In this document: positions 13,623 to 35,691 of the stretch, piece by piece
Numbering within the stretch: position 1 is the stretch's first letter
Layout of the letters: the number at the start of each line of letters is the position of its first letter
Virus record (IMG/VR): IMGVR_UViG_3300044949_000260
Coordinates: 1 to 40,014 of that record
DNA from: a virus
Lineage: Duplodnaviria; Caudoviricetes
Reading direction: 5' to 3' (one strand)
DNA length: 40,014 bases
The notes under the pieces: model-generated
Database searches by the model: none
What the model was told of the DNA's origin: nothing
What the model saw: only the letters and a program-made list of their open reading frames with translations
Made by a program: the position numbers and the translations under genes

Positions 13623-16600
13623 TTACTGTCTCGACGATTCGCTCGCTTTGCCAGTGGCAAGGCCTCGAACATAGTCGACATCAGAGGTGGGTTTGATCTC
13701 GCCGCGCTCGACATCAATCGCATATCCGATCGGTCGGCCAAGTACGGTGACGGGAATGCCGGTGACCAGGCTGATCATGGTCAGAATGTCGCGCACATTC
13801 TTGCCAGTAACCTCTTTGTCTGAATCGGCGATGTTGATGCCAGCCTTGACCACGCCAATCGTCGCGCCCTCGAGCGTTGAGACGGATGGGCTGGTGGTCA
13901 TGCGGTCATCGTACGGCTTGTTGTTGAACGCATTGAATGGCACGGTGGCCGCAGTACCAAACGGCACCAGGGCTACAGCACCACGCGCTTGAGAACCAAA
14001 GAACCAGGACATGAAAACATCGAGGTAGCCGTCGTCGTCTTCGTCGTCCCAGCCGCCGCCAAGACTGCGCACGATGGCGTCAGCGACCAGCATTGGCAAA
14101 CCAAACCCAAGCAGGTATTGCATGAACAACTTGCCTTTGTTGCCGCGCCATCCGAGATCACGGAAGATCTTGATGTACTCAGTGGCATTCAAGTTTGCCA
14201 TCATGTTGAAGTAGCCAGAGAACTGGATCAGCGTCTTGTAGAACGGAGATCCAACCTCAAACGCTGACAAATCTTCAGGTTGTAGGCTTGACTGCGTCAT
14301 GCGCACTGCGGCGTCTGCACGCTTGATGGCCTCTTTGCTTGCGGCCTCTTCGCTGACATCGACGCCAGCCTCGGCCACAGCCTGGTTGTATGCGCCAACC
14401 CAGGTCACGATGTCGACAAAATTCTGGAAGGCTTGTTGCAAGAAGTAGCCGTGCTTGTTTGACCACTTCTGCACCTTTTCAAACTTGGTCGGGTTTAACA
14501 GCAAATCGTTCATCAAGTCTTGCACTTCGACCATCTGGTTGCTCATGCGGTCTGCCATGAACGGCGACAACTCAGCAACAAACTCGGCCTGCGCAGTTGG
14601 ACTCTTCATGTAGTCTACAAGGGCTGTCTTCAAGTATTTGCCTTGCACTTTGATCAGCGATGTAAAGAAGCCAGTCGCTTGTTGCAATGCGTTGGTGATA
14701 TTGCCAAACATGATGCCAATTCCGGTGCGATTGCGCACAGCACGCCAGAATGTATCGATGCTCTTGTTCATGCCAGCCTCGCTCGTGATCTGGCGGGCAG
14801 ATCGATTGAGCCAAGGAATCAGCATGTCCTCAATCACGGTCGGGTCAATGCGGGTAAGCGTGTCTGCAAAGTCGCGCTTGCGCAAAATCTTGAGCGTGTC
14901 TCGAATGGTCGGTTGCACGCGAGCAAATCGGATCACATCGTCAATGTGTTTGGCCATCACGCGAATGTCCAAAGACAGAGGTTTGTTGTACTCGACGCGG
15001 CCCATAGTAAATCCAGCGCCAGTGCTCGGCATGGCATTGCGGAAGTCAGCCTCGAGTTCTTCCATCTTGGCCTGGCGCTGTGCGTCGCGGACTATGAACG
15101 GATCAGTCTTCGCAGGAACATAGCCACCACGGTAAGTGCCGAACGGAGTGACAACAGATCGAGCCTCAACTTCTTTGAAGTAGTAGCCGAAAATTTCGCG
15201 ATGCGCCTCTTGCGCCATAGGCTTGATTTCTTCATTCAAATCCCACACGGCTTGCACGAAATCAAAGTCGGCTTTGGTGAGCACGCCTTCATCAATCATG
15301 CGGTTCATAAACATGTTCCAGCGCGAGGTGTCGACAGTGCCGTCCTCGTTAGCAGTTCCCCAACCTCTACCAACCAGCAACTTTTTCATGTTGCTGTCGT
15401 TGCCGATGTGCATCAAAGCGCCAAGCACTTCGGCCTTTCCGATGCCTCCGTTCTCGTTGCCGAAGGTGTAGTTCAACTCAGGGGCGCTGATCTTGGCCAC
15501 CGGAAGATCCAACTTCTGGATCATGTCGACATAGTCTTTGACATAGCGGTTACGGTCGACGCGGTATTGGTCTAACGCGGCACGAACAGGGCGCCAGATG
15601 TAGTTTGTGAATGCTCCAGGACCAGCGGCGCCATCAGTTGCGTCGGCCCAGTGCTCGACGCGTCGAGTCAGTGCCTTGGCGTTATAAAGGGCGCGAATGG
15701 CTTTTTCTTTTTTGCCAGGCGCCATGCGTTCACCGGCAACCTCGAGCGGCACGCCAATGGCCTCCAGGCGCGTCGTAAGTTCACCAATGATCGAGTCCAG
15801 AGCAACAGCCTTGCCTTCAATCATTACCTCGTTGTCACGCTTAGATTGGAACCACAGCGCGTCGACAATTTCCTTCATGTCGCGGAACTGGTTCAAAGTC
15901 AACTTTTTGTAGTTGCGCGGGCCACCAGTTGCCTCGAGCAGGATCGGTTCGATGTCTGCAAATAGATCTGGGTTGTAGGCCTTGAGTTGCTCGACGAACT
16001 TGCCAGGTTCAACATCACGCGGGCCAAGGCCATAGTGGCCAAGAATAAATCGTGCCGCATTCACCAAGTCGATGTTGCGGTTCTTGGCCATCTTTGCATC
16101 TGCCTTGAAGATCTTGGCAAAGCCTTCGATGGCTTTGTCGATCTCTTTGCGTGCATTGACAGCCTCGAGCGTAAGTTGGTTGTTGAGCAATTGGTTCTGC
16201 TTGGCGCGTGCGGCTTCTGTCGTTTTACCAGCCTTGGATGCCTTGATGCTTTCCTTGGATGCGCGGGCCTCTGCAAGTGCATAGTCGCGTGGTCGGATCT
16301 CGCTGATCACCTTGTTGCCGATAAGTGACTTGGCCGCAGTCTTTGCGGCCTGGATCATCAGGCGTGCAGGCTGTGTAGCCTTGGCCAGGTAGCGCAACTC
16401 GACGGCCACAAACCTAGCGCGTGCGTCGTTGTGCAATGCCTTTTGCACCTCGAGTTCAATGGCGGCAGGGTTCATCAGGTCTGCGTACTCATCGAGCATG
16501 CGTGCGTCGGTGCGGTTGTCGATCTCTTCTTTGATCGGCTTGGCCTCGAGCAGTGAGCGAACAAGTTGATCACCAGATGCAAAGCCAAACATAGATGCCA

Positions 16601-19600
16601 CCAGGTCAGGTGGCATGCCTTCTTCGGCCAGCATGCCGTACTTGCCATAGCCAAGTTTTGCCAGGTCAGGTGCTGGCGTCAGCGTTTCTTTGCTCTCAGG
16701 ATAAAGTGCCTTGACATCGGCAATCTTGAGTTTGTGGCCACCGAGTGATTCGATGTCGTTTCCATCCTCATCTTTTAGAGTGCCGCGCTTGAGGAATTCC
16801 ATGGCGCGGTAGACGCTGTCGTTCTGAACTTCTGCGGCCACCTCTTCGCGCACACCTTTGCGGATGTCTGCTGTCTTGGCTTGCATCTCCTTGAGCACAC
16901 GCGATCGTGCATTGCCCAGCCACTTCAATTGGCGCAGGCTGGCCTGGGTCAATTCAGTGATCGATGCCTCGGTGGCTTCGGCCATCATGGCCTGATATGC
17001 GGCCCACTCGGTGTCATCCATGCCAGACTCTTCTTGAGTTTGGAACATGGGCACCATGCTGTTGACAGCCTCAGATTGCTTGATCTGTGCATCGCTGGCG
17101 ATCATGCGATCCATCACCTGGCGCACTTCGCCAGTCAAGATCGGCAAGTCTTCGCCGTTTTCTTTGCGGTAAATCTCGTTGAGTTCTTCGCGAATTGAGG
17201 TGTAAACAGATTTAATCCAGTCACTAAATTTCTGGAAAATTGAACGCATACGCTCGCTTGGAGCCTTGCCTTCAAACAAGTAAATCTCGTAGTTGTAGGC
17301 CCATGCCTCATGGTATTTGCGTTGCTCATCAAGAGACAGCGCATTCCAGGTGGCCAGGTCTTTAACGCCAAACCAATCAAGGATCGTCTGCATGTCCTCT
17401 TTGTTTTGCTCGGTTGCGTCAGGGCGCGAGGCCATGTCGGCATACACCGTCAAAAAGAAGTGCGCAGTCTCATGCAAGAAGGTGGACATATCCGCCCCCT
17501 CGTTGAGGATTGTGGTCAATCGTTTTGGATCGAACCCGCCACGCTCGGGCTGGCGCAGGATTTGGGACTTGGCCGCAGGAGGAAAGAACTTGGCCACGGC
17601 TTCGGCATCAGCGTCTTCAAATGTCAGGGTTCCTGAACGCAGTTCAGCCGATGGTGCCGCCGCCTTAATTTCAGCCTCCTGGGCCTCAAATTTGCGAATC
17701 TCTGAGGTGAGCATTGCATACCGGCGTTTCGTGCCCGCAGGGGGCGTATACGCGCCAGCGGCAGGCATCGAGTGCATGCCATGCTGTTCGACCGGGACGC
17801 CAGTGTGTTTCGGCCCCAAAAGCACGGCCACGCCTTGGTCGCCCTGGGCGGCAGGGATGTAGACGCCATCGAACCCTGCGTCGATGATTGCGGACTCAAC
17901 CGCGTTGAACCATTGGCCACGATCGTCACGGCCCATGGCCGATGCCTGGGCACGCAGGCCCAGCGGGTCAGTCGCCGCGTTGTAGAGGTTGTCCAGGTAG
18001 ACGGCATGCACATTGCCGCCGACGCCCGCTTCGGGGCGGATGCCATTGCCGGTGTCCACATAGAAGTGGATGCGGTTTGACAGGCGAGTGTCAGCGCCAG
18101 CCAGACGGCCAGCCTCTGCGCCTTTTAAGCCTGTTCCGTAGGCGAATCCGGCAAGGTTATTCCGAGGTTGTTTTGAATAGTGGATGCCAAGGACTGAAGT
18201 TGCTCCATCCCTGGCTGTCCCATATCGTTGGGCAACATTGAGATCGCTTGCTCGTAGGCGTTGAACGCCGCCACCTCCGGCTCCTGATTGGGCAAAGACT
18301 GCGGGTTTTCCATGATCTTCCTTTCGTTTCTTGTTGCGCTTTACAGCGCGGTTTTGTTCTGCAACTGCGTCGTCGTAGGTCTTGGCCTTCTTGCCGTCAG
18401 TGATCTGGTGCCAGCCATAGTACGACTGGTCCAGGGCCATGAAAACGACATTCGGCTCACCATTGTTGAATTCGGCAAACGCTTCTTTGTTCCAACCTTC
18501 GGGCGCCTGAGTGTCATCCCAGGGTAAACGCGAAGATGCGACGAATCCATGGGCCGCGTAGAACTCCGGCAAGATCGTCTCGAATGCATCGAGTCTCGTG
18601 CCACCAGCGGCCACCGCCAACTCCATGACAGAGCGGCCAGCGCCACCCTGGGAAAACACCGAGACGATGTCCCCGTCGGGTTTGACTGCCACGCCAGACA
18701 GGCCGTCTTCAGCGAGGAATAGGCGCATGCCCTGGTAATCCTCGACCGGGTAGACATAGACAGCGGCACCCATGTCGCCACTGGCTTGCTTGCTGGCAGT
18801 GATGGCTTCAGAGAATCGTTGGGCATTCTGTGCGTTGCCTTGCTCCAACTCGTAGAACTTGGGCACCGTGATGCCGTTGTTGCGGTACACACGGGCCAGG
18901 CCTGCGCCCGCTTTCCATTCCTGCGAGTAGGTGACAAGGAGTTTTTTTAGAACCCGAACTTTTCCGCCATCTCCACTGCTTTTTGCCGTGTAAGACCAGG
19001 ATTGTTTTTGATCGCCGCTTCGATTGGATCTTGCAATTTGCGTTGCGACTGCGCCTGCGAAGAGGCGCTTTTCTCTTTGAGTAAAGCCTCCACTTTCTGC
19101 CTGCTCCCCTCCAGTGATCTCATCTTGCTCATCCTGTAGTCGTGCTCGTCTTGCGCGTTCATCTTTGGACTCCTTCTTCAATGCGTTATTGATCTTGCGA
19201 TCGGAAATACCCAAGTCACGCGCAACACCTGCGGCGGCATTGGCGTAGTCTGGGGCATCTTCATCACTATACCCATCTGTTGACTCTTGGTCAACATTAT
19301 TGTCTTTGGCCGACTCGTACAGTCGTTTTTCTGCATACCAAAGCACGGCCTGCAAATCGGCCATGGTCAGGTCGGCATAGGCCGGATCGGCCTGCAACTC
19401 GGCCAGGATCTGGGCGAAGACGGAGCGAATGTAGGTGCGCTCGTGAGGGCCAGCCGGGGCTTCCTTCTGGCCATCGTTGTACTTGGCCAGGCTGTTGCCT
19501 GCCTTGCGGATCTCCTCACCGACCTTGGACTCGTTCATCTGCTCGCGCAGTTTTGGGTCCATGGAAGCCTTCTGGATGGCGTCAGCCAGGCGATTGATCT

Positions 19601-22600
19601 CGGTGTTGGCTATGTCCATGCCAATGACGGCGGACAGGCTCTTGGCTTGTTCTGGGGTCGCACTGCGCAACACAGCGCCCAGGCGCTCAGTAGCCTTTTG
19701 AATGTTGTTTTGCTGGCTCTTGATCAGCGTGCCGGTCCAGCGTCCCCAGGTGCGGATCAGCCAGCGATCCATAGTCAGCGAACTAAAGTCGCCGTACAGG
19801 TTCGAGAAAAATCCGTTGCCGATCTTTGGACCAATGATGGCCGAGCCTTTAACCACGGTGTCTGCGTGCTCACCGCCAGGCTTTAGTTCTTTATTGATCG
19901 CACTGATTTCGCCCACGGTAAAGTTGGTCTGCATGAACTGGCGCAGATTTTTCATGCCCCATTCATCGACCAATTTATTGAACAAAGCCAGCGAATCATT
20001 GATTGCGTTTTGAGCCTGTCCACCTTTGATGTTGGTGGGCATGACCTTGTTTTCTTTGTAGTAGCGGTAGGCCTTCTCAGCCAGTTCGAAGTTCTTGTCG
20101 ACCTTCAAGCCGTTGGATGTGACGGCCAGCGCCCAGGTAAATGCAAAGCGTGCGTCTTCGTTGGTCGCGATCTCAGGATGGACCAAAGCCATGACGGCCA
20201 GCGCCTGGCGGGTTTTCTCGTCGTACCAGCCGATCGCATTCGGGTTTTGCTCGAGCGCAAACAGCGCGTCCTTCAAGCCCACGCGCACCAGATAGTCAGT
20301 GGTCTGAGGCGAAGGCACAGAGACATCGACGCCAGCGGCGCCAGCGGCTTCCTGCACAGCCTTCTGGATGGCCAACTTCAGGTCGCGGCCTTTGTTCCAC
20401 ACCTGGCTCTTGGCAACCTCGAGCGCATTTTTCAGTTCGGCCTGATCTTCAACAGTTTCAGGAATGTCGGCCTGCGCTTCGATCGCGGCCACATCATCGC
20501 CCTCGGCATCTTCTGCCGCGTTGATCGTGTCGGAGTCGGTGAGCGATTCGGTCTGCTGTGCAGGCGGCATGTCGCCCTGGCGCAGGATGTCTGCATTCTC
20601 ACGCGACCAAGTTCCGTCGTTGAACGGCGACTTGACTGCGGCAGGATCGAACACAACGATCTCGCGTGCGTCTGGCGCGACCTCGAGGATCACGCCGTCG
20701 TAGCCCTGGGCTTGTAGTTCAGCAGTAAATGCATCTGCGGCTTCGCGTCCACCAGCGCGGATGCGAGCCTTGTCCTCCATGGTGGCCATGTACGGGTTCT
20801 CGAGACGAGCGTACAGCGGCATTATGTTTTGGCCAGCAGGTCCAAATTTTCTTGCTTTTTGATCTGCATAAACATCGGCCATGTCTATGCTGTCGGTCAG
20901 ATATACGCCAGTGCCCAACCAGCCTGTGTCTTTGCGGTTCGGGTGGTCAGGATCGAATGCGGTCACATCGTCAGCAGTGCCGTGGTACAGCGTTTGCGGA
21001 CGGCCTTGTTGGTCCTGGAACATCGACGCGCCAATCCAGTTTCGGAATGCGTCGCTAGTCGTGTTGACAGTTTGATCCTGGTTGAACAGAGCCATGCCGC
21101 CAGCCTGGCCATCAGCACGCTCAACCTTGTACATGTAGCGGTCGTAAAACTCGGTCGGCATGATCTTTAGCGACGCGGCTTGCGTCACCACAAAGTCACG
21201 CACGAGTTGCGCGTTGATGCGTGCGGCGTTGTCGGTGTATTGCTTGGTCGCCTTGAGTTGCTGAAACATCGTGTTCTGGACCTGACGGGCAGACTTCACG
21301 AATTCTTTGTTGGTCATCTCAACCTTGGCGTTGGCCTCCATCTCCGTCTTCATGATCTCGGCCTGGTTATCAATGAACTGGCGAGCCTCACGGCGGGTCA
21401 TGGTTTCGCCCTCGATGCGCAAGTCATCGATCAAAGCAGTGCTGAACTCAGTCGGGGCAATGTTGGTTTGATACTCTGTCACAGGGATGGCGATGTCGCC
21501 GCCAGTGGCAATCGCAGTGTCGATCTGATCGCGCACAGAAGGCGACACTTCTGCTACGCGCTCGGCCAACCCAGATTGTTTTAGTGTTTCTCCGCTGATG
21601 TAGACAGTAGTGACATCCGTCTCTTGCGTTACCTGGCTGATCCACTCATTGAATGTTTCTGCACTGCGTGCTCGCACTTTGCTGGCACGAGAAAACTCTT
21701 GGACCTTTTCAAATGCTTTGGCACTGCGCTCGGCAGACTCTGCCTGCAACATGGTGCTTTTGTAGTTGCCGGGTATTTCCACCAAAGCGGATGGCAATTC
21801 AAGAATCGCCTCAAGCAAAATCTCACCAGGTTTGAATTCATTGGTGAGTGCTTGTGCCGATGCTTCACCAGCGGCTCCACCAGCGGCTTGAATAGTTGCT
21901 TCCCCAGTAACGCGTGTAGCAACGCTTGCCACTGTTGGCTTTGCGCCAGACAAAAGTTTTCCGGCTAGACCAGCAGTCAACGCGGTCCAAAAGGCTATTG
22001 GCACACCTCGCCTTACAGCCTTGTCGCGCGCTTCCTCCATAATTTTTTCATCGCTCAACACTTGGTAAAGGGCATCTGATGAATTGATTTGTCCGGCACG
22101 CGATTGAATGACTTCATCCATTGTCCCGGCATACTCAAGAAAGTAAGCACCTGTGCCAAGAGTCAAACCTTGGCGAATTGCTTGTTGAGAAAAAAACGGG
22201 ACTGTGGTTGACGCGCCCATCGGGCCAACATTTTTTGTTGCAATAGCCATTGCAATCACTGGTGAATATTTGCCGAATGATTGGATGGCCGCTTCCTTCA
22301 AAGCGAACGGGTTGCTCAAAATTGCGGACATACCCTCACTGAATGTCGAGGCCTCACTGATTTCTGTCAGGCCGCGCTGAATGTCTTCAGGGATAGGGAA
22401 CTTTTCAACATTTCTCTGATAGTTTTGAATGCTGAGTTTTTGTTGAATCTTTGGGTCGAACGAAATGCCATTGGCTTCAGCCGCCGCCTGCTGTCGGCTT
22501 TGCAGTCCTTTCATCAAAGACGATTGGTTGACCATGAAAGCAAAGTCTCGTTTGAACTCTGCATATCCACGGCGGAATGGCTCAGTGATGCCCTCAATAA

Positions 22601-23003
22601 AAGATCGCTCGATGGGCTTGATCGTGCCGAACTCACGCTCGATACCAGCCAGGTTTGGCGTGTCGTCGTGCGACACCTTTGCATTGTTCGGGTTGCTCAA
22701 CCATTGGCCAAGCAACGGCGAGCGGTCGAGCACACGGTCGAACTCATTGAGTTGCACATTGCGGTTGACTTGCGCAAAGTTGCGTTGCACTACATCGACA
22801 GGAATGCCAGACTTGTTTGACAAATTTCTTTCACGCGCCGCCTGATCAGGGTTTGTGTTAAGCGACTGATACAGGCTCGTGCGCAATTGCACGCGTTGTC
22901 CGTCGATCACATTGGCGGCGGCGGCGTCAACATCAGGCGCTCGCCTCGTGCCAGTGACTCGAGCGGCGGCGGCGTCAAATTCGTCTTCAGGTACTTGCAT
23001 CAT
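13623..23003 (-). CDS. Giant polyvalent internal virion/ejection protein (3126 aa): LPD22-like, ART, HhH-like, GNAT, ART-like, zincin HExxH, helical C-terminus
   Basis: Occupies the position of the third ejection protein; motifs YHGT..GVYLT..GYDGVI..EIVVF, GPKIG..TMDRW, LDAF...FY..HGF, IHYS..GFDGV and TFLHETAH. Confidence 0.85.
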   Translation of the reverse strand: MMQVPEDEFDAAAARVTGTRRAPDVDAAAANVIDGQRVQLRTSLYQSLNTNPDQAARERNLSNKSGIPVDVVQRNFAQVNRNVQLNEFDRVLDRSPLLGQWLSNPNNAKVSHDDTPNLAGIEREFGTIKPIERSFIEGITEPFRRGYAEFKRDFAFMVNQSSLMKGLQSRQQAAAEANGISFDPKIQQKLSIQNYQRNVEKFPIPEDIQRGLTEISEASTFSEGMSAILSNPFALKEAAIQSFGKYSPVIAMAIATKNVGPMGASTTVPFFSQQAIRQGLTLGTGAYFLEYAGTMDEVIQSRAGQINSSDALYQVLSDEKIMEEARDKAVRRGVPIAFWTALTAGLAGKLLSGAKPTVASVATRVTGEATIQAAGGAAGEASAQALTNEFKPGEILLEAILELPSALVEIPGNYKSTMLQAESAERSAKAFEKVQEFSRASKVRARSAETFNEWISQVTQETDVTTVYISGETLKQSGLAERVAEVSPSVRDQIDTAIATGGDIAIPVTEYQTNIAPTEFSTALIDDLRIEGETMTRREARQFIDNQAEIMKTEMEANAKVEMTNKEFVKSARQVQNTMFQQLKATKQYTDNAARINAQLVRDFVVTQAASLKIMPTEFYDRYMYKVERADGQAGGMALFNQDQTVNTTSDAFRNWIGASMFQDQQGRPQTLYHGTADDVTAFDPDHPNRKDTGWLGTGVYLTDSIDMADVYADQKARKFGPAGQNIMPLYARLENPYMATMEDKARIRAGGREAADAFTAELQAQGYDGVILEVAPDAREIVVFDPAAVKSPFNDGTWSRENADILRQGDMPPAQQTESLTDSDTINAAEDAEGDDVAAIEAQADIPETVEDQAELKNALEVAKSQVWNKGRDLKLAIQKAVQEAAGAAGVDVSVPSPQTTDYLVRVGLKDALFALEQNPNAIGWYDEKTRQALAVMALVHPEIATNEDARFAFTWALAVTSNGLKVDKNFELAEKAYRYYKENKVMPTNIKGGQAQNAINDSLALFNKLVDEWGMKNLRQFMQTNFTVGEISAINKELKPGGEHADTVVKGSAIIGPKIGNGFFSNLYGDFSSLTMDRWLIRTWGRWTGTLIKSQQNNIQKATERLGAVLRSATPEQAKSLSAVIGMDIANTEINRLADAIQKASMDPKLREQMNESKVGEEIRKAGNSLAKYNDGQKEAPAGPHERTYIRSVFAQILAELQADPAYADLTMADLQAVLWYAEKRLYESAKDNNVDQESTDGYSDEDAPDYANAAAGVARDLGISDRKINNALKKESKDERARRARLQDEQDEITGGEQAESGGFTQREKRLFAGAVATQIARSNRSGDQKQSWSYTAKSSGDGGKVRVLKKLLVTYSQEWKAGAGLARVYRNNGITVPKFYELEQGNAQNAQRFSEAITASKQASGDMGAAVYVYPVEDYQGMRLFLAEDGLSGVAVKPDGDIVSVFSQGGAGRSVMELAVAAGGTRLDAFETILPEFYAAHGFVASSRLPWDDTQAPEGWNKEAFAEFNNGEPNVVFMALDQSYYGWHQITDGKKAKTYDDAVAEQNRAVKRNKKRKEDHGKPAVFAQSGAGGGGVQRLRASDLNVAQRYGTARDGATSVLGIHYSKQPRNNLAGFAYGTGLKGAEAGRLAGADTRLSNRIHFYVDTGNGIRPEAGVGGNVHAVYLDNLYNAATDPLGLRAQASAMGRDDRGQWFNAVESAIIDAGFDGVYIPAAQGDQGVAVLLGPKHTGVPVEQHGMHSMPAAGAYTPPAGTKRRYAMLTSEIRKFEAQEAEIKAAAPSAELRSGTLTFEDADAEAVAKFFPPAAKSQILRQPERGGFDPKRLTTILNEGADMSTFLHETAHFFLTVYADMASRPDATEQNKEDMQTILDWFGVKDLATWNALSLDEQRKYHEAWAYNYEIYLFEGKAPSERMRSIFQKFSDWIKSVYTSIREELNEIYRKENGEDLPILTGEVRQVMDRMIASDAQIKQSEAVNSMVPMFQTQEESGMDDTEWAAYQAMMAEATEASITELTQASLRQLKWLGNARSRVLKEMQAKTADIRKGVREEVAAEVQNDSVYRAMEFLKRGTLKDEDGNDIESLGGHKLKIADVKALYPESKETLTPAPDLAKLGYGKYGMLAEEGMPPDLVASMFGFASGDQLVRSLLEAKPIKEEIDNRTDARMLDEYADLMNPAAIELEVQKALHNDARARFVAVELRYLAKATQPARLMIQAAKTAAKSLIGNKVISEIRPRDYALAEARASKESIKASKAGKTTEAARAKQNQLLNNQLTLEAVNARKEIDKAIEGFAKIFKADAKMAKNRNIDLVNAARFILGHYGLGPRDVEPGKFVEQLKAYNPDLFADIEPILLEATGGPRNYKKLTLNQFRDMKEIVDALWFQSKRDNEVMIEGKAVALDSIIGELTTRLEAIGVPLEVAGERMAPGKKEKAIRALYNAKALTRRVEHWADATDGAAGPGAFTNYIWRPVRAALDQYRVDRNRYVKDYVDMIQKLDLPVAKISAPELNYTFGNENGGIGKAEVLGALMHIGNDSNMKKLLVGRGWGTANEDGTVDTSRWNMFMNRMIDEGVLTKADFDFVQAVWDLNEEIKPMAQEAHREIFGYYFKEVEARSVVTPFGTYRGGYVPAKTDPFIVRDAQRQAKMEELEADFRNAMPSTGAGFTMGRVEYNKPLSLDIRVMAKHIDDVIRFARVQPTIRDTLKILRKRDFADTLTRIDPTVIEDMLIPWLNRSARQITSEAGMNKSIDTFWRAVRNRTGIGIMFGNITNALQQATGFFTSLIKVQGKYLKTALVDYMKSPTAQAEFVAELSPFMADRMSNQMVEVQDLMNDLLLNPTKFEKVQKWSNKHGYFLQQAFQNFVDIVTWVGAYNQAVAEAGVDVSEEAASKEAIKRADAAVRMTQSSLQPEDLSAFEVGSPFYKTLIQFSGYFNMMANLNATEYIKIFRDLGWRGNKGKLFMQYLLGFGLPMLVADAIVRSLGGGWDDEDDDGYLDVFMSWFFGSQARGAVALVPFGTAATVPFNAFNNKPYDDRMTTSPSVSTLEGATIGVVKAGINIADSDKEVTGKNVRDILTMISLVTGIPVTVLGRPIGYAIDVERGEIKPTSDVDYVRGLATGKASESSRQ
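18125..18313 (-). CDS. Candidate overprinted small gene (62 aa) nested in the +1 frame of the giant gene
   Basis: AAAGGAAG upstream of the ATG; acidic amphipathic product; lies at the GNAT/ART2 junction. Confidence 0.5.
   Translation of the reverse strand: MENPQSLPNQEPEVAAFNAYEQAISMLPNDMGQPGMEQLQSLASTIQNNLGITLPDSPTEQA
18947..19162 (-). CDS. Candidate overprinted small gene (71 aa) nested in the +1 frame of the giant gene
   Basis: AAGGAG-N7-ATG; protein-like C-terminus DPIEAAIKNNPGLTRQKAVEMAEKFGF; spans the HhH/GNAT linker. Confidence 0.6.
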   Translation of the reverse strand: MNAQDEHDYRMSKMRSLEGSRQKVEALLKEKSASSQAQSQRKLQDPIEAAIKNNPGLTRQKAVEMAEKFGF

Positions 23004-34618: not shown

Positions 34619-35068
34619 TCAGATCTGAATACTGAAGATGATGTCTTGCACGCCGTAACCTAGTCGAGGCATCATCTTCTCCAATGGCGTGCCAGTCTTG
34701 GCATGCCACAGCATCAGACGGGCGCCGCGCTCTTTTGCCGCCTCTTCCGTTTTGCGGATGAGTTGCAGTCCAAGTCGGCCACTCCTCTTGTCTTCGGTCA
34801 CAAAGAGCAAGTCGTTGCTACATGTTATGAGGTCGGCGTAGTGCGGATGATTGGTCACGACACTTACCGAGTACCCCACAATTCGATCGCCTTCAAACGC
34901 ACCGAGGATCAACAGCATGCCATTGGCCTCGAGGTTGCGGTACTTTTGCTCATCAGGCTTGAGCACCATCACCTGCTTGTTGAGGGCGATCTCCTCCCAG
35001 TGTTCAGAGAACAACTCGCCAGCATTGGCCAGCATCTCGTCGACATTCGATGGTCGGATTTCAGTCAT
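34619..35068 (-). CDS. GNAT-family acetyltransferase
   Basis: IVGYSV...DLLFV....RSGRLGLQLI...E..AKERGA (acetyl-CoA-binding motif A), RLGY. Confidence 0.85.
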   Translation of the reverse strand: MTEIRPSNVDEMLANAGELFSEHWEEIALNKQVMVLKPDEQKYRNLEANGMLLILGAFEGDRIVGYSVSVVTNHPHYADLITCSNDLLFVTEDKRSGRLGLQLIRKTEEAAKERGARLMLWHAKTGTPLEKMMPRLGYGVQDIIFSIQI

Positions 35069-35691
35069 GGGTTCCCCACTATTGACGCCACAGTAGTGGC
35101 TGAATTATCGGATACGGGTACCTGGTGCATCGGAAACATCGGCGTCACCGCGTCGATGATGATGTGAATGCGGTCGGTATCGCTGTCGTTTCGCGCTGAG
35201 TGTGTGACCTTGTGATCAAACCACCAGGCCTCGCCGGGCGCGAAGTGTTGGATGTCAGCGCCAGCAGTCAGCGTCGCATGCTCAGTGCCGGTGACGGCCA
35301 CATGGAAGCGAGCGTAGTGGTCAGCGTAGGTGCCCTCATCGATATGCGGCGTGACCACGCCACCCGGCTTGAGTTTGACGATCAGCACGCGGCCCAACTC
35401 CTCGACCTTGAGCACGCCAGCCAGCAATGGCCGGAGCACTGGGACCAGGACATCGGCCAGCGTGTCCATCACCGGGTAGTCGTAGGCGCCCTTGTCAAAC
35501 ATGTAGTAGTAGGGCGTGAACTTGTACGGGCCACGCGGGTAGATGCATTGTGTGTCTTTATGTGCCGAGCCGGTGTACTCCTGGCGAGCGGTGATCTCGT
35601 CCCACAGGTGTGGCATAGCCTCGAGCCTGGCACGGATTGGCTCGACATCGAGGCCCACGGCCACGCGCTCAAAGTTTCGCGTACGGGTCAT
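35065..35691 (-). CDS. Aspartyl/asparaginyl beta-hydroxylase-like 2OG-Fe(II) dioxygenase
   Basis: LKPGG.VTPHIDEG (HxD), RFHV, GEAWWFDH...HSA.N....DRIH.IID. Confidence 0.85.
   Translation of the reverse strand: MTRTRNFERVAVGLDVEPIRARLEAMPHLWDEITARQEYTGSAHKDTQCIYPRGPYKFTPYYYMFDKGAYDYPVMDTLADVLVPVLRPLLAGVLKVEELGRVLIVKLKPGGVVTPHIDEGTYADHYARFHVAVTGTEHATLTAGADIQHFAPGEAWWFDHKVTHSARNDSDTDRIHIIIDAVTPMFPMHQVPVSDNSATTVASIVGNP
35090..35122 (-). promoter_or_regulatory. Late promoter motif GGTACCCGTATCC-N14-TACTGT
   Basis: Upstream of the GNAT-portal operon, inside the 3' end of the hydroxylase ORF. Confidence 0.75.

What the first reader, a model, noticed from the sequence alone, without database searches (positions are those of the whole stretch)
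18125..19175. Two RBS-equipped small genes overprinted in the linkers of a giant injected effector protein: candidate embedded antitoxin/immunity system
Seen: inside the 3126-aa ORF there are two same-strand ORFs, both in the +1 frame. 19162-18947 encodes 71 aa after a textbook AAGGAG-N7-ATG, and 18313-18125 encodes 62 aa after AAAGGAAGATC-ATG. Each starts where one enzymatic domain has ended and runs up to or into the next (HhH-like | ORF1 | GNAT | ORF2 | ART-like). Both products read like real helical proteins (…DPIEAAIKNNPGLTRQKAVEMAEKFGF; …AFNAYEQAISMLP…MEQLQSLASTIQNNLG). The main-frame sequence over them is Arg/Ser/Gly-rich and uses codons such as AGA and CGA that appear uncommon in neighbouring sequence, as expected for overprinting. 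Established: GNAT toxins (AtaT/TacT) and ART toxins (DarT, ParT) are normally paired with adjacent small antitoxins. Inference: the phage co-expresses neutralisers of the toxic domains during assembly, while the packaged polyprotein is injected without them into the next cell. Each domain-plus-hidden-gene cassette would move as a single unit.
Basis: partly seen in the sequence, partly recalled or inferred. Interest (0 to 1): 0.85.

Follow-up and report, generated by a model that had tools for sequence, protein, structure and literature searches.

The report
Hidden phage inhibitor genes bacteria steal
Two small genes lie out of frame inside a freshwater phage's giant virion-protein gene, and one of them is predicted to cover the cofactor site of the acetyltransferase-fold domain encoded right behind it; lone copies of these genes also occur outside the giant gene, several in bacterial arrays behind a SAM riboswitch, likely as stolen antidotes to the phage's injected enzymes.

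Summary
Both +1-frame ORFs are real and under selection. Main-frame synonymous variation falls 3-4-fold over them, and ORF1 has 165 relatives at 50% clustering. The host gene is a polyvalent virion protein (LPD22, ART, HhH-GPD fold, GNAT fold, second ART-like domain) of a Limnohabitans DC33-like podovirus. Each hidden ORF is modular, and its C-terminal part travels with the downstream domain: ORF1 with the GNAT (20 of 30 junctions versus 0 of 7), ORF2 with the ART-like domain. ORF1's C-half is predicted to bind the GNAT's CoA-binding loop (ipSAE 0.82, best control 0.01). Unexpectedly, 38 of 50 motif-found ORF1 copies are free-standing. Six keep fossil phage flanks, three loci also carry ORF2-type genes, and 11 lie behind a SAM-I/IV riboswitch, some in Polynucleobacter-like repeat arrays. 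Best reading: nested cognate inhibitors keep injected enzymes off during assembly, and bacteria capture them as orphan immunity. Toxicity, translation and inhibition are untested. This scan noted nested ORFs in polyvalent genes before on other DNA (8 notes); my look-ups found no note on host capture.

The parts
13623..23003 (-). Giant polyvalent virion-protein gene (3126 aa), third gene of a T7-like internal-virion block ahead of tail-fibre-like genes
   Evidence: phrog_9880; upstream neighbours: internal virion protein phrog_418 and endolysin-like phrog_10475; 84% identical to the region of Limnohabitans phage DC33
22629..22877 (-). LPD22 domain (aa 43-125)
   Evidence: Pfam PF18834, E 4e-23
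20625..21014 (-). First ADP-ribosyltransferase domain (aa 664-793); no SD-led nested ORF beside it in this genome
   Evidence: Pfam PF18760, E 2e-19; alt-frame scan
19170..20330 (-). HhH-GPD DNA-glycosylase-fold domain (aa 892-1278)
   Evidence: model pLDDT 88; the top 23 VIA-align rows are all HhH glycosylases or relatives, best Z 11.2; Foldseek found nothing
19266..19294 (-). Sigma70-like internal promoter candidate (TTGACC-17-TATAGT), about 100 nt before ORF1; weak lead
   Evidence: 1 found versus 0.6 expected; -10 hexamer identical in 21 of 21 close relatives, TTGAC-17-TAY kept in the 63-74% clade and lost beyond it
19170..19175 (-). Shine-Dalgarno of ORF1 (AAGGAG, 7 nt spacer)
18947..19162 (-). 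Hidden ORF1, 71 aa, +1 frame
18947..19033 (-). ORF1 C-terminal module (residues 44-71, DPI...PGLTR...FGF), predicted to bind the GNAT domain
18324..18971 (-). GNAT-fold domain (aa 1345-1560); predicted interface at model residues 106-113 (FSQGGAGR) and 132-140 (TILPEFYAA)
18317..18324 (-). Shine-Dalgarno of ORF2 (AAAGGAAG)
18125..18313 (-). Hidden ORF2, 62 aa, +1 frame; its core (PEVAAFNAYEQAISML) travels with the ART-like domain behind it
17724..18269 (-). Second ART-like domain (aa 1579-1760)
   Evidence: ESM Atlas: 25 of 30 hits are ART-PolyVal clusters, best 0.92; no Pfam hit
17460..17474 (-). HExxH zincin-like peptidase motif (aa 1844), candidate processing protease
   Evidence: motif in the sequence; role inferred from PMC5512222 passages

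Best explanation
ORF1 and ORF2 are selected genes nested one base out of frame in a phage polyvalent virion-protein gene, and they likely encode cognate inhibitors of the enzyme domain directly behind each, with ORF1's C-terminal helices predicted to cover the acyl-CoA-binding loop of the GNAT-fold domain. Step 1 (shown by comparison): the hidden frames are conserved and have their own SD-ATG starts. Step 2 (shown by distribution): when domains are swapped at the linker, the hidden ORF is split too, and its C-part stays with the downstream domain, so inhibitor and enzyme are inherited as one stretch of DNA. Step 3 (predicted): ORF1 residues 44-71 dock on GNAT loop FSQGGAGR and the following helix. 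Placing that surface at the CoA site rests on recalled GNAT topology. Step 4 (inferred): the inhibitors are made in the producing cell and keep the enzymes off there; the packaged protein enters the next cell without them and modifies host targets. Step 5 (distribution shown, purpose inferred): bacteria and integrated elements have cut these hidden genes out, let the old main frame decay, and collected them in clusters, likely as orphan immunity against the injected enzymes. Some clusters lie behind a SAM-I/IV riboswitch with a terminator, which would switch them on when SAM falls.
For: Selection in both frames. Among 15 loci retrieved by the GNAT domain rather than by ORF1, the last 28 columns are 51% identical in the hidden frame versus 42.5% in the main frame. 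The C-module is present at 20 of 30 dereplicated GNAT junctions and 0 of 7 HhH junctions without GNAT (Fisher p 0.002, not corrected for relatedness; 19 of 29 versus 0 of 6 without the frameshifted L101, which was counted twice). The ORF2 core stays with the ART-like domain down to 44% identity behind different upstream domains. Complex model: ipSAE 0.82 (runs 0.81, 0.82, 0.82), best of 3 controls 0.01; the mark was reached by 116 of 157 solved and 2 of 215 mismatched pairs; contacts agree at least 82%; partner pLDDT at least 78. Of 50 motif-found loci, 12 are nested between HhH and GNAT, and 38 (26 distinct C-termini) have neither domain in any frame. 25 of 38 have stops in the old main frame. 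6 of 38 keep phage flanks outside the ORF (best flank 20-61 bits versus at most 4.6 in control frames). The same loci hold homologues of other nested ORFs: L241 and L266 carry the ORF2 core directly after ORF1 (E 2e-4, 6e-4), L262 matches nested L304 (2e-35), L250 matches L198 and L195 (5e-22, 3e-27), L226 matches L218 (2e-16). The C-module is duplicated in some lone copies. Known precedent for blocking the AcCoA site of a GNAT: KacA-KacT (PMC6698736 passages).
Against: No experiment shows translation, toxicity or inhibition. 10 of 30 GNAT junctions lack the C-module, though several have another +1 ORF there. About 168 Streptomyces phage records carry a distant (about 30%) match to the GNAT; the one region opened (R4) has a stand-alone acetyltransferase gene and none of three neighbours tested matches the C-module. 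Co-travel also follows from physical adjacency alone. In close relatives the main frame over the overlap is still constrained (pN/pS 0.15-0.44), so part of the conservation is shared. pN/pS values for the free-standing copies (0.22; 0.12 in arrays) are biased by the retrieval pattern. Most other array genes have no match among nested ORFs or giant proteins, so the arrays are not purely captured hidden genes. Several lone copies sit beside integrases and AAA_25 primase-helicases, so the beneficiary may be a satellite element rather than the cell.
Confidence: 0.68

Rival explanations
1. The hidden proteins bind their neighbouring domains as folding, packaging or ejection chaperones, or as substrate adaptors, not as inhibitors.
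For: Fits co-travel and the complex model equally well. E. coli GndA, an out-of-frame altORF product, relocalises the protein of its host gene (10.64898/2026.10.22.760973, abstract).
Against: The predicted interface lies on the CoA-binding loop and helix. A helper is of no use to cells that lack the domain, yet 38 lone copies keep the hidden frame while the main frame decays.
Confidence: 0.12
2. The inhibitor role is right, but its purpose is exclusion between mobile elements: resident phages, prophages and satellites use the small proteins to disarm a superinfecting rival's injected enzymes, and the lone copies belong to such elements rather than serving host defence.
For: Conserved promoter-like site before ORF1. 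Integrase, AAA_25 and tRNA neighbours at L243, L228, L262, L225, L238 and L245.
Against: Other copies sit among cellular genes (TonB receptor, beta-lactamase-family, HD, bactofilin). Array proteins cluster at 90% or more with proteins of 1.7-1.9 Mb Polynucleobacter contigs. No integrase was identified among the window ORFs scanned, and DC33 forms clear plaques.
Confidence: 0.13
3. The hidden proteins are independent early effectors acting on host proteins; their place beside the domains is incidental.
For: They are real genes that can persist alone.
Against: C-module coupling to the GNAT across different upstream domains, and the passing model with near-zero controls.
Confidence: 0.05
4. The ORFs are shadows of a low-complexity linker or of an RNA structure and are not translated.
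For: An open +1 frame is likely by composition alone (P 0.85 and 0.25).
Against: Fixed start, SD, length and stop across relatives; 165 clusters; lone copies that keep only this frame.
Confidence: 0.02

Closest known systems
Polyvalent proteins of phages and conjugative elements (Iyer et al. 2017, PMC5512222; passages read)
   Same: The giant gene has LPD22, ART-PolyVal, GNAT and a zincin motif, and lies among virion genes; the paper predicts packaging and injection and notes host capture of whole polyvalent proteins.
   Different: In its main text 'overlap' occurs 0 times, and the passages seen describe no nested genes or cognate inhibitors. Its supplementary and FTP material was not seen.
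GNAT-RHH type II toxin-antitoxin pairs (KacAT, PMC6698736 passages; AtaRT and TacAT named there or recalled)
   Same: A small protein encoded just upstream blocks the AcCoA site of a GNAT-fold enzyme.
   Different: ORF1 has no RHH or other Pfam match. It is nested in the enzyme's own gene, and the enzyme is a domain of a virion polyprotein. None of the 50 listed best structural matches is titled as a tRNA-acetylating toxin.
Acquired interbacterial defence (AID/rAID) orphan-immunity arrays (Ross et al., 10.1101/471110; abstract and opening paragraphs)
   Same: Clusters of neutralising genes without their toxins, on mobile DNA, with signs of active acquisition (repeat-delimited cassettes here).
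   Different: AID neutralises T6SS effectors of bacteria. Here the donors are out-of-frame genes of phage virion proteins, some arrays follow a SAM riboswitch, and protection is untested.
Phage polymorphic toxins with downstream immunity genes (MuF toxins; recalled, no paper read)
   Same: Virion-delivered enzyme plus small cognate partner. A MuF-like minor capsid protein of Microbacterium phage Barnstormer ends in the same GNAT (46%) and has an unannotated 47-codon +1 ORF just before it.
   Different: There the toxin is C-terminal and immunity is a separate downstream gene; here the domains are internal and the partner is overprinted upstream of each.
Embedded out-of-frame genes: E. coli gndA in gnd (abstract); lambda Rz1 in Rz (recalled)
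   Same: An out-of-frame product works together with the product of its host gene.
   Different: Those are single fixed pairs that cooperate; here the modules are several per gene, recombine with domains, are predicted to inhibit, and are excised by other genomes.

Membership tests
Polyvalent proteins (giant ORF) | Several unrelated enzymatic domains plus LPD domains in one chain | tested here: met
   LPD22 and ART-PolyVal; HhH and GNAT folds; second ART-like domain
Polyvalent proteins (giant ORF) | Encoded among virion genes | tested here: met
   portal, capsid, tail and internal virion neighbours
Polyvalent proteins (giant ORF) | Packaged and injected | not testable with these tools
   inferred from gene position
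GNAT-RHH type II TA (KacAT/AtaRT/TacAT) | Antitoxin with an RHH DNA-binding domain | tested here: not met
   none of 96 ORF1-family members matches an RHH family; no family is hit by more than one member
GNAT-RHH type II TA (KacAT/AtaRT/TacAT) | Two separate genes in a bicistronic operon | tested here: not met
   ORF1 is nested and the GNAT is internal to a 3126-aa ORF
GNAT-RHH type II TA (KacAT/AtaRT/TacAT) | Enzyme has the GNAT fold | tested here: met
   Z 10.3, rmsd 2.7, 129 aligned; the 50 listed rows are acetyltransferases or their complexes
GNAT-RHH type II TA (KacAT/AtaRT/TacAT) | Partner binds the enzyme and blocks AcCoA | tested here: inconclusive
   model supports binding at the CoA loop; a prediction, not a measurement
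GNAT-RHH type II TA (KacAT/AtaRT/TacAT) | Enzyme is toxic (tRNA acetylation) | not testable with these tools
   no assay
DarTG / ParST ART toxin-antitoxin pairs (features recalled) | Antitoxin is a macrodomain/NADAR hydrolase or ParS-type protein | tested here: not met
   ORF2 is 62 aa with no Pfam or PADLOC hit
Effector-immunity (polymorphic toxin) systems | Small partner co-inherited with one enzyme domain across changing contexts | tested here: met
   (20 of 30 versus 0 of 7)
Effector-immunity (polymorphic toxin) systems | Partner protects from the effector | not testable with these tools
   needs co-expression
AID/rAID orphan-immunity arrays (free-standing copies) | Partner genes clustered without cognate effectors | tested here: met
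AID/rAID orphan-immunity arrays (free-standing copies) | Recombinase and repeated intergenic elements | tested here: inconclusive
   56-72 nt repeats in 5 of 6 loci tested; no recombinase seen next to those repeat arrays within the fetched flanks
AID/rAID orphan-immunity arrays (free-standing copies) | Donors are T6SS immunity genes | tested here: not met
   matches are to nested ORFs of phage genes
SAM-I/IV riboswitch RF01725 (array leaders) | Score above the Rfam gathering threshold, upstream on the same strand | tested here: met
   11 of 38 loci, 43.7-69.1 bits versus 41.1
SAM-I/IV riboswitch RF01725 (array leaders) | Binds SAM and switches expression | not testable with these tools
   terminator-like hairpin with a T-run follows the aptamer in most leaders printed; no assay

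The most novel reading that the evidence does not exclude
Phage polyvalent virion proteins carry a hidden +1-frame layer of one inhibitor module per enzyme domain. Freshwater Burkholderiales harvest these modules into repeat-delimited arrays under a SAM-I/IV riboswitch. SAM depletion by a virion-delivered SAM lyase would then act as the infection alarm that turns on a library of antidotes stolen from the phages themselves. A relative's polyvalent protein has a SAM-lyase-like domain (Atlas 0.85, lead only) whose nested module has a homologue in riboswitch array L265 (shuffle P below 0.0005). This would be a riboswitch-triggered, acquired anti-phage immunity aimed at injected proteins.
Probability: 0.3. 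Interest if true: 0.96.

Novelty: new variant of a known kind. Interest (0 to 1): 0.86.

Why it matters
It would answer how phages build virions loaded with host-modifying enzymes without harming the producing cell, and why the linkers of polyvalent proteins look Arg/Ser/Gly-rich. Annotation misses these genes: DC33's record lists only the giant CDS there, although both ORFs are intact in it. The hidden frame gives a way to assign partners to uncharacterised effector domains. The lone copies point to an anti-phage strategy not listed in PADLOC: neutralising injected proteins with captured phage genes, possibly under metabolite control. A cultured pair exists (phage DC33 on Limnohabitans sp. 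DCL3), so the claims can be tested directly.

Tried and rejected
Pfam and PADLOC gave no family for ORF1 or ORF2; PHROGs gave only a weak ORF2 hit, E 0.004. PDB sequence search with the GNAT domain and with one relative's domain found nothing useful. Foldseek had no match at E 0.001 or better for either model; the folds rest on VIA-align. The wide ORF1 alignment was too diverse for the locus search, so a degenerate C-terminal motif was used, which favours one subfamily.

Translational re-initiation of the downstream domain after the ORF1 stop was rejected: no in-frame start follows it. 'ORF1 N-part is an HhH inhibitor' is kept only as a lead (12 of 23 HhH junctions versus 2 of 14 others, but 0 of 7 where no GNAT follows). 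The 57-aa array protein had no relative in viral contigs, and its likeness to nested ORFs of L309/L310 is marginal (P 0.005-0.05 among 12 comparisons). RNA-library contigs of relatives cover the region but cannot show strand, start or translation. The Barnstormer nested ORF does not score on the ORF1 C-module profile (0.9 bits). ORF2-ART and ORF1-HhH complexes were not modelled, since one job was available. Three metagenome contigs were not held as genomes. Nested viral loci were not scanned for riboswitches; the window has no Rfam hit.

Paper searches that found no description of nested inhibitors in polyvalent genes, or of their capture. The library lacks most subscription papers, and no supplements were read.
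Full report
Observation. The window is a 40,014-nt virus record. The 3126-aa ORF (23003-13623) contains two same-strand +1 ORFs exactly as described: 19162-18947 (71 aa, AAGGAG-N7-ATG) and 18313-18125 (62 aa). The codon and composition oddities are real. From one sequence they are not decisive: the +1 frame would be open by composition with P 0.85 and 0.25, and two SD-led ORFs arise in 5% of 300 resamplings.

They are genes. ORF1 is intact with an open main frame in 27 of 28 loci examined, of 32 found. ORF2 is intact in 30 of 35, of 36 found; the remaining five carry a longer ORF with the same C-part. One locus per set is identical to the query (L001/L033), and many are near-clonal. In 21 distinct close sequences, synonymous variants per codon fall to 0.26 (ORF1) and 0.49 (ORF2) versus 0.96-1.21 in the domains. 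pS falls to 0.12 and 0.16 versus 0.37-0.46, and +1-frame pN/pS is 0.48 and 0.65 versus 1.5-2.3. All 26 close protein hits are 69-73 aa. A profile finds 165 clusters at 50% identity. Both ORFs are intact but unannotated in cultured Limnohabitans phage DC33, a short-tailed phage with clear plaques that is 84% identical over this region (passages, 107, 108).

The host gene. It carries LPD22 and ART-PolyVal, an HhH-GPD glycosylase fold (Z 11.2, rmsd 4.1, 194 aligned), a GNAT fold (Z 10.3, rmsd 2.7, 129 aligned), a second ART-like domain (Atlas 0.92) and an HExxH motif. It follows internal-virion-protein genes. It is a polyvalent protein in the sense of PMC5512222 (passages). Injection is inferred, not shown.

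Which domain each ORF belongs to. I retrieved 73 HhH loci, 80 GNAT loci and 43 ART loci by domain and read the +1 frame at the junctions. The ORF1 C-module (DPI...PGLTR...FGF) is at 20 of 30 dereplicated GNAT junctions and 0 of 7 HhH junctions without a GNAT. L101, a frameshifted contig, was counted in two rows; without it the counts are 19 of 29 and 0 of 6. In 15 GNAT-retrieved loci the last 28 columns are more conserved in the hidden frame (51%) than in the main frame (42.5%); the rest is about equal (35% versus 34%). The ORF2 core stays with the ART-like domain down to 44% identity while the upstream domain and the ORF's N-part change (17 of 43 loci inspected). Against strict coupling: 10 GNAT junctions lack the module, and distant GNAT relatives occur in Streptomyces phages; the one opened (R4) stands alone with no matching neighbour among three tested. 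A Microbacterium phage minor capsid protein ending in this GNAT has a different, unannotated 47-codon +1 ORF just before it.

Predicted binding. GNAT (A3 residues 8-212) with ORF1 residues 38-71 scored ipSAE 0.82 (three runs 0.81-0.82), best of three controls 0.01. The mark was reached by 116 of 157 solved and 2 of 215 mismatched pairs; these counts hold only roughly, because my own alignments were used. Contacts agree at least 82% and partner pLDDT is at least 78. No like complex turned up by sequence search of the PDB. The interface covers FSQGGAGR (106-113) and TILPEFYAA (132-140). By recalled GNAT topology these are the pyrophosphate-binding loop after strand 4 and the helix that packs the CoA adenosine. 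KacA inhibits KacT partly by blocking AcCoA (PMC6698736 passages).

Free-standing copies. A context-free motif scan gave 50 loci (7 viral, 2 genome, 41 metagenome). Twelve are nested between HhH and GNAT. Thirty-eight (26 distinct C-termini) have neither domain in six frames; some of these contigs are only 1-2 kb. Neighbours include a TonB receptor, beta-lactamase-family and dienelactone hydrolases, HD, bactofilin, MerR, DUF3293, integrase-like and AAA_25 genes. One lies on a 632-kb Rhizomicrobium MAG contig. A cluster close to L241/L266 includes a Burkholderiaceae MAG protein. Array proteins cluster at 90% or more with Polynucleobacter proteins. Direction is phage to cell: 6 of 38 keep phage main-frame flanks outside the ORF (best flank 20-61 bits versus at most 4.6 for control frames), and 25 of 38 have stops in the old main frame. 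The same loci collect other nested ORFs: the ORF2 core directly behind ORF1 in L241 and L266; L262 with a homologue of a nested ORF2-type gene (E 2e-35); L250 with two ORF1-type genes matching two different phages; L226, L261 and L265 with further modules. Most other array genes had no such match.

Riboswitch. All 38 loci were scanned against Rfam. Eleven have a SAM-I/IV riboswitch above the gathering score, on the same strand, 221-1243 nt upstream (9 of the 17 loci with at least 1300 nt of upstream sequence). By their first genes they form about five independent arrays. In L240 the ORF1 homologue is the first gene after the terminator. Repeats of 56-72 nt, mostly ending in an SD-like run, delimit cassettes in 5 of 6 loci tested. 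Phage SAM lyases deplete SAM to beat restriction and BREX (PMC7877911 and 10.1101/2023.02.27.530186, search listing and abstract starts; PMC12255297 passages). A relative's polyvalent protein has a SAM-lyase-like domain (Atlas 0.85, lead only), and its nested module resembles a gene in array L265 (phmmer E 0.0025; shuffle P below 0.0005). That SAM-I-type switches open when SAM is low is recalled; PMC2864571 passages only establish the family. No SAM-lyase-like domain was identified in this window's giant protein.

Mechanism. Most likely (0.68), the nested ORFs are cognate inhibitors that keep the packaged enzymes silent in the producing cell. Overprinting ties each inhibitor to its domain through recombination. 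Other genomes capture the inhibitors as orphan immunity. Shown: selection, co-travel, lone copies, fossils, riboswitch matches. Predicted: binding and its site. Inferred: inhibition, toxicity, exclusion from virions, protection, SAM triggering. Rivals are a helper or adaptor role (0.12), exclusion between mobile elements (0.13), independent effectors (0.05) and non-coding shadow (0.02).

Novelty. It works like effector-immunity pairs and AID arrays (10.1101/471110, abstract and opening paragraphs) but fails membership in GNAT-RHH, DarTG and T6SS-AID families. GndA is a precedent for an out-of-frame product acting on its host gene's protein (abstract). Seven of my ten paper searches addressed this arrangement and found no description of it; supplements, including those of PMC5512222, were not seen. 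Earlier notes of this scan report nested ORFs in other polyvalent genes, two with modelled capping of the downstream domain. These are unchecked AI notes; they guided my choice of complex but are not counted as support. Look-ups by ORF1 sequence and for host capture or riboswitch arrays returned nothing. Verdict: new variant of a known kind, interest 0.86.

Noticed in passing
L227, L232, L235, L236, L240, L243, L251, L252, L255, L259, L265: SAM-I/IV riboswitches lead arrays of small, mostly unannotated genes; none of the array genes scanned matched a methionine-pathway family.
   Followed up: partly
L255 3126-3190, 3580-3644, 5165-5229; also L251, L236, L237, L240: A 56-72 nt intergenic repeat, mostly ending in an SD-like run, separates cassettes; no Rfam match; a possible recombination or capture site.
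   Followed up: partly
L126, L128, L129, L136, L141, after the HhH domain: A 124-135 codon SD-led +1 ORF spans a whole Tpt1/ART-like domain rather than a linker.
   Followed up: no
L132-L134, L200, L207, L210: Further nested +1 ORFs precede another recurring domain; L132-L134 have two in one junction.
   Followed up: no
L303-L307, L309, L310 upstream of the ART-like domain; L195, L198 after the GNAT: SAM-lyase-like domains in relatives' polyvalent proteins; L305 has an Atlas lead of 0.85, the others were judged by recalled motif only.
   Followed up: partly
L268 2810-2953 (Microbacterium phage Barnstormer): Unannotated 47-codon +1 ORF inside the minor capsid protein gene, just before its C-terminal GNAT.
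   Followed up: partly
L108, L118 (and L189, L191): The main frame has a stop at the start of the GNAT and ORF1 runs 10 codons longer, so the GNAT is cut off from the polyprotein.
   Followed up: no
L029/L101/L052 (one contig): A deletion appears to join the HhH domain in frame to the C-terminal part of ORF1; the giant gene is broken here. It may be an assembly error.
   Followed up: no
L190, L199, L211: GNAT junctions with a different +1 C-terminal motif, possibly a second inhibitor family.
   Followed up: no
L241, L266, L262: A shared module of about 80 aa next to the lone ORF1 copies, fused to the ORF2 core in L241/L266 and separate in L262; its source was not found.
   Followed up: no
window 19266-19294 (minus strand): Sigma70-like site inside the giant gene, about 100 nt before ORF1, invariant in close relatives.
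   Followed up: partly
window 34619-35691: A stand-alone acetyltransferase (phrog_1249) and an Asp/Asn beta-hydroxylase-like cupin lie between terminase and portal genes.
   Followed up: no
PQ492659.1 (L267): DC33's record is filed under Inoviridae although the paper shows a short-tailed icosahedral phage.
   Followed up: no
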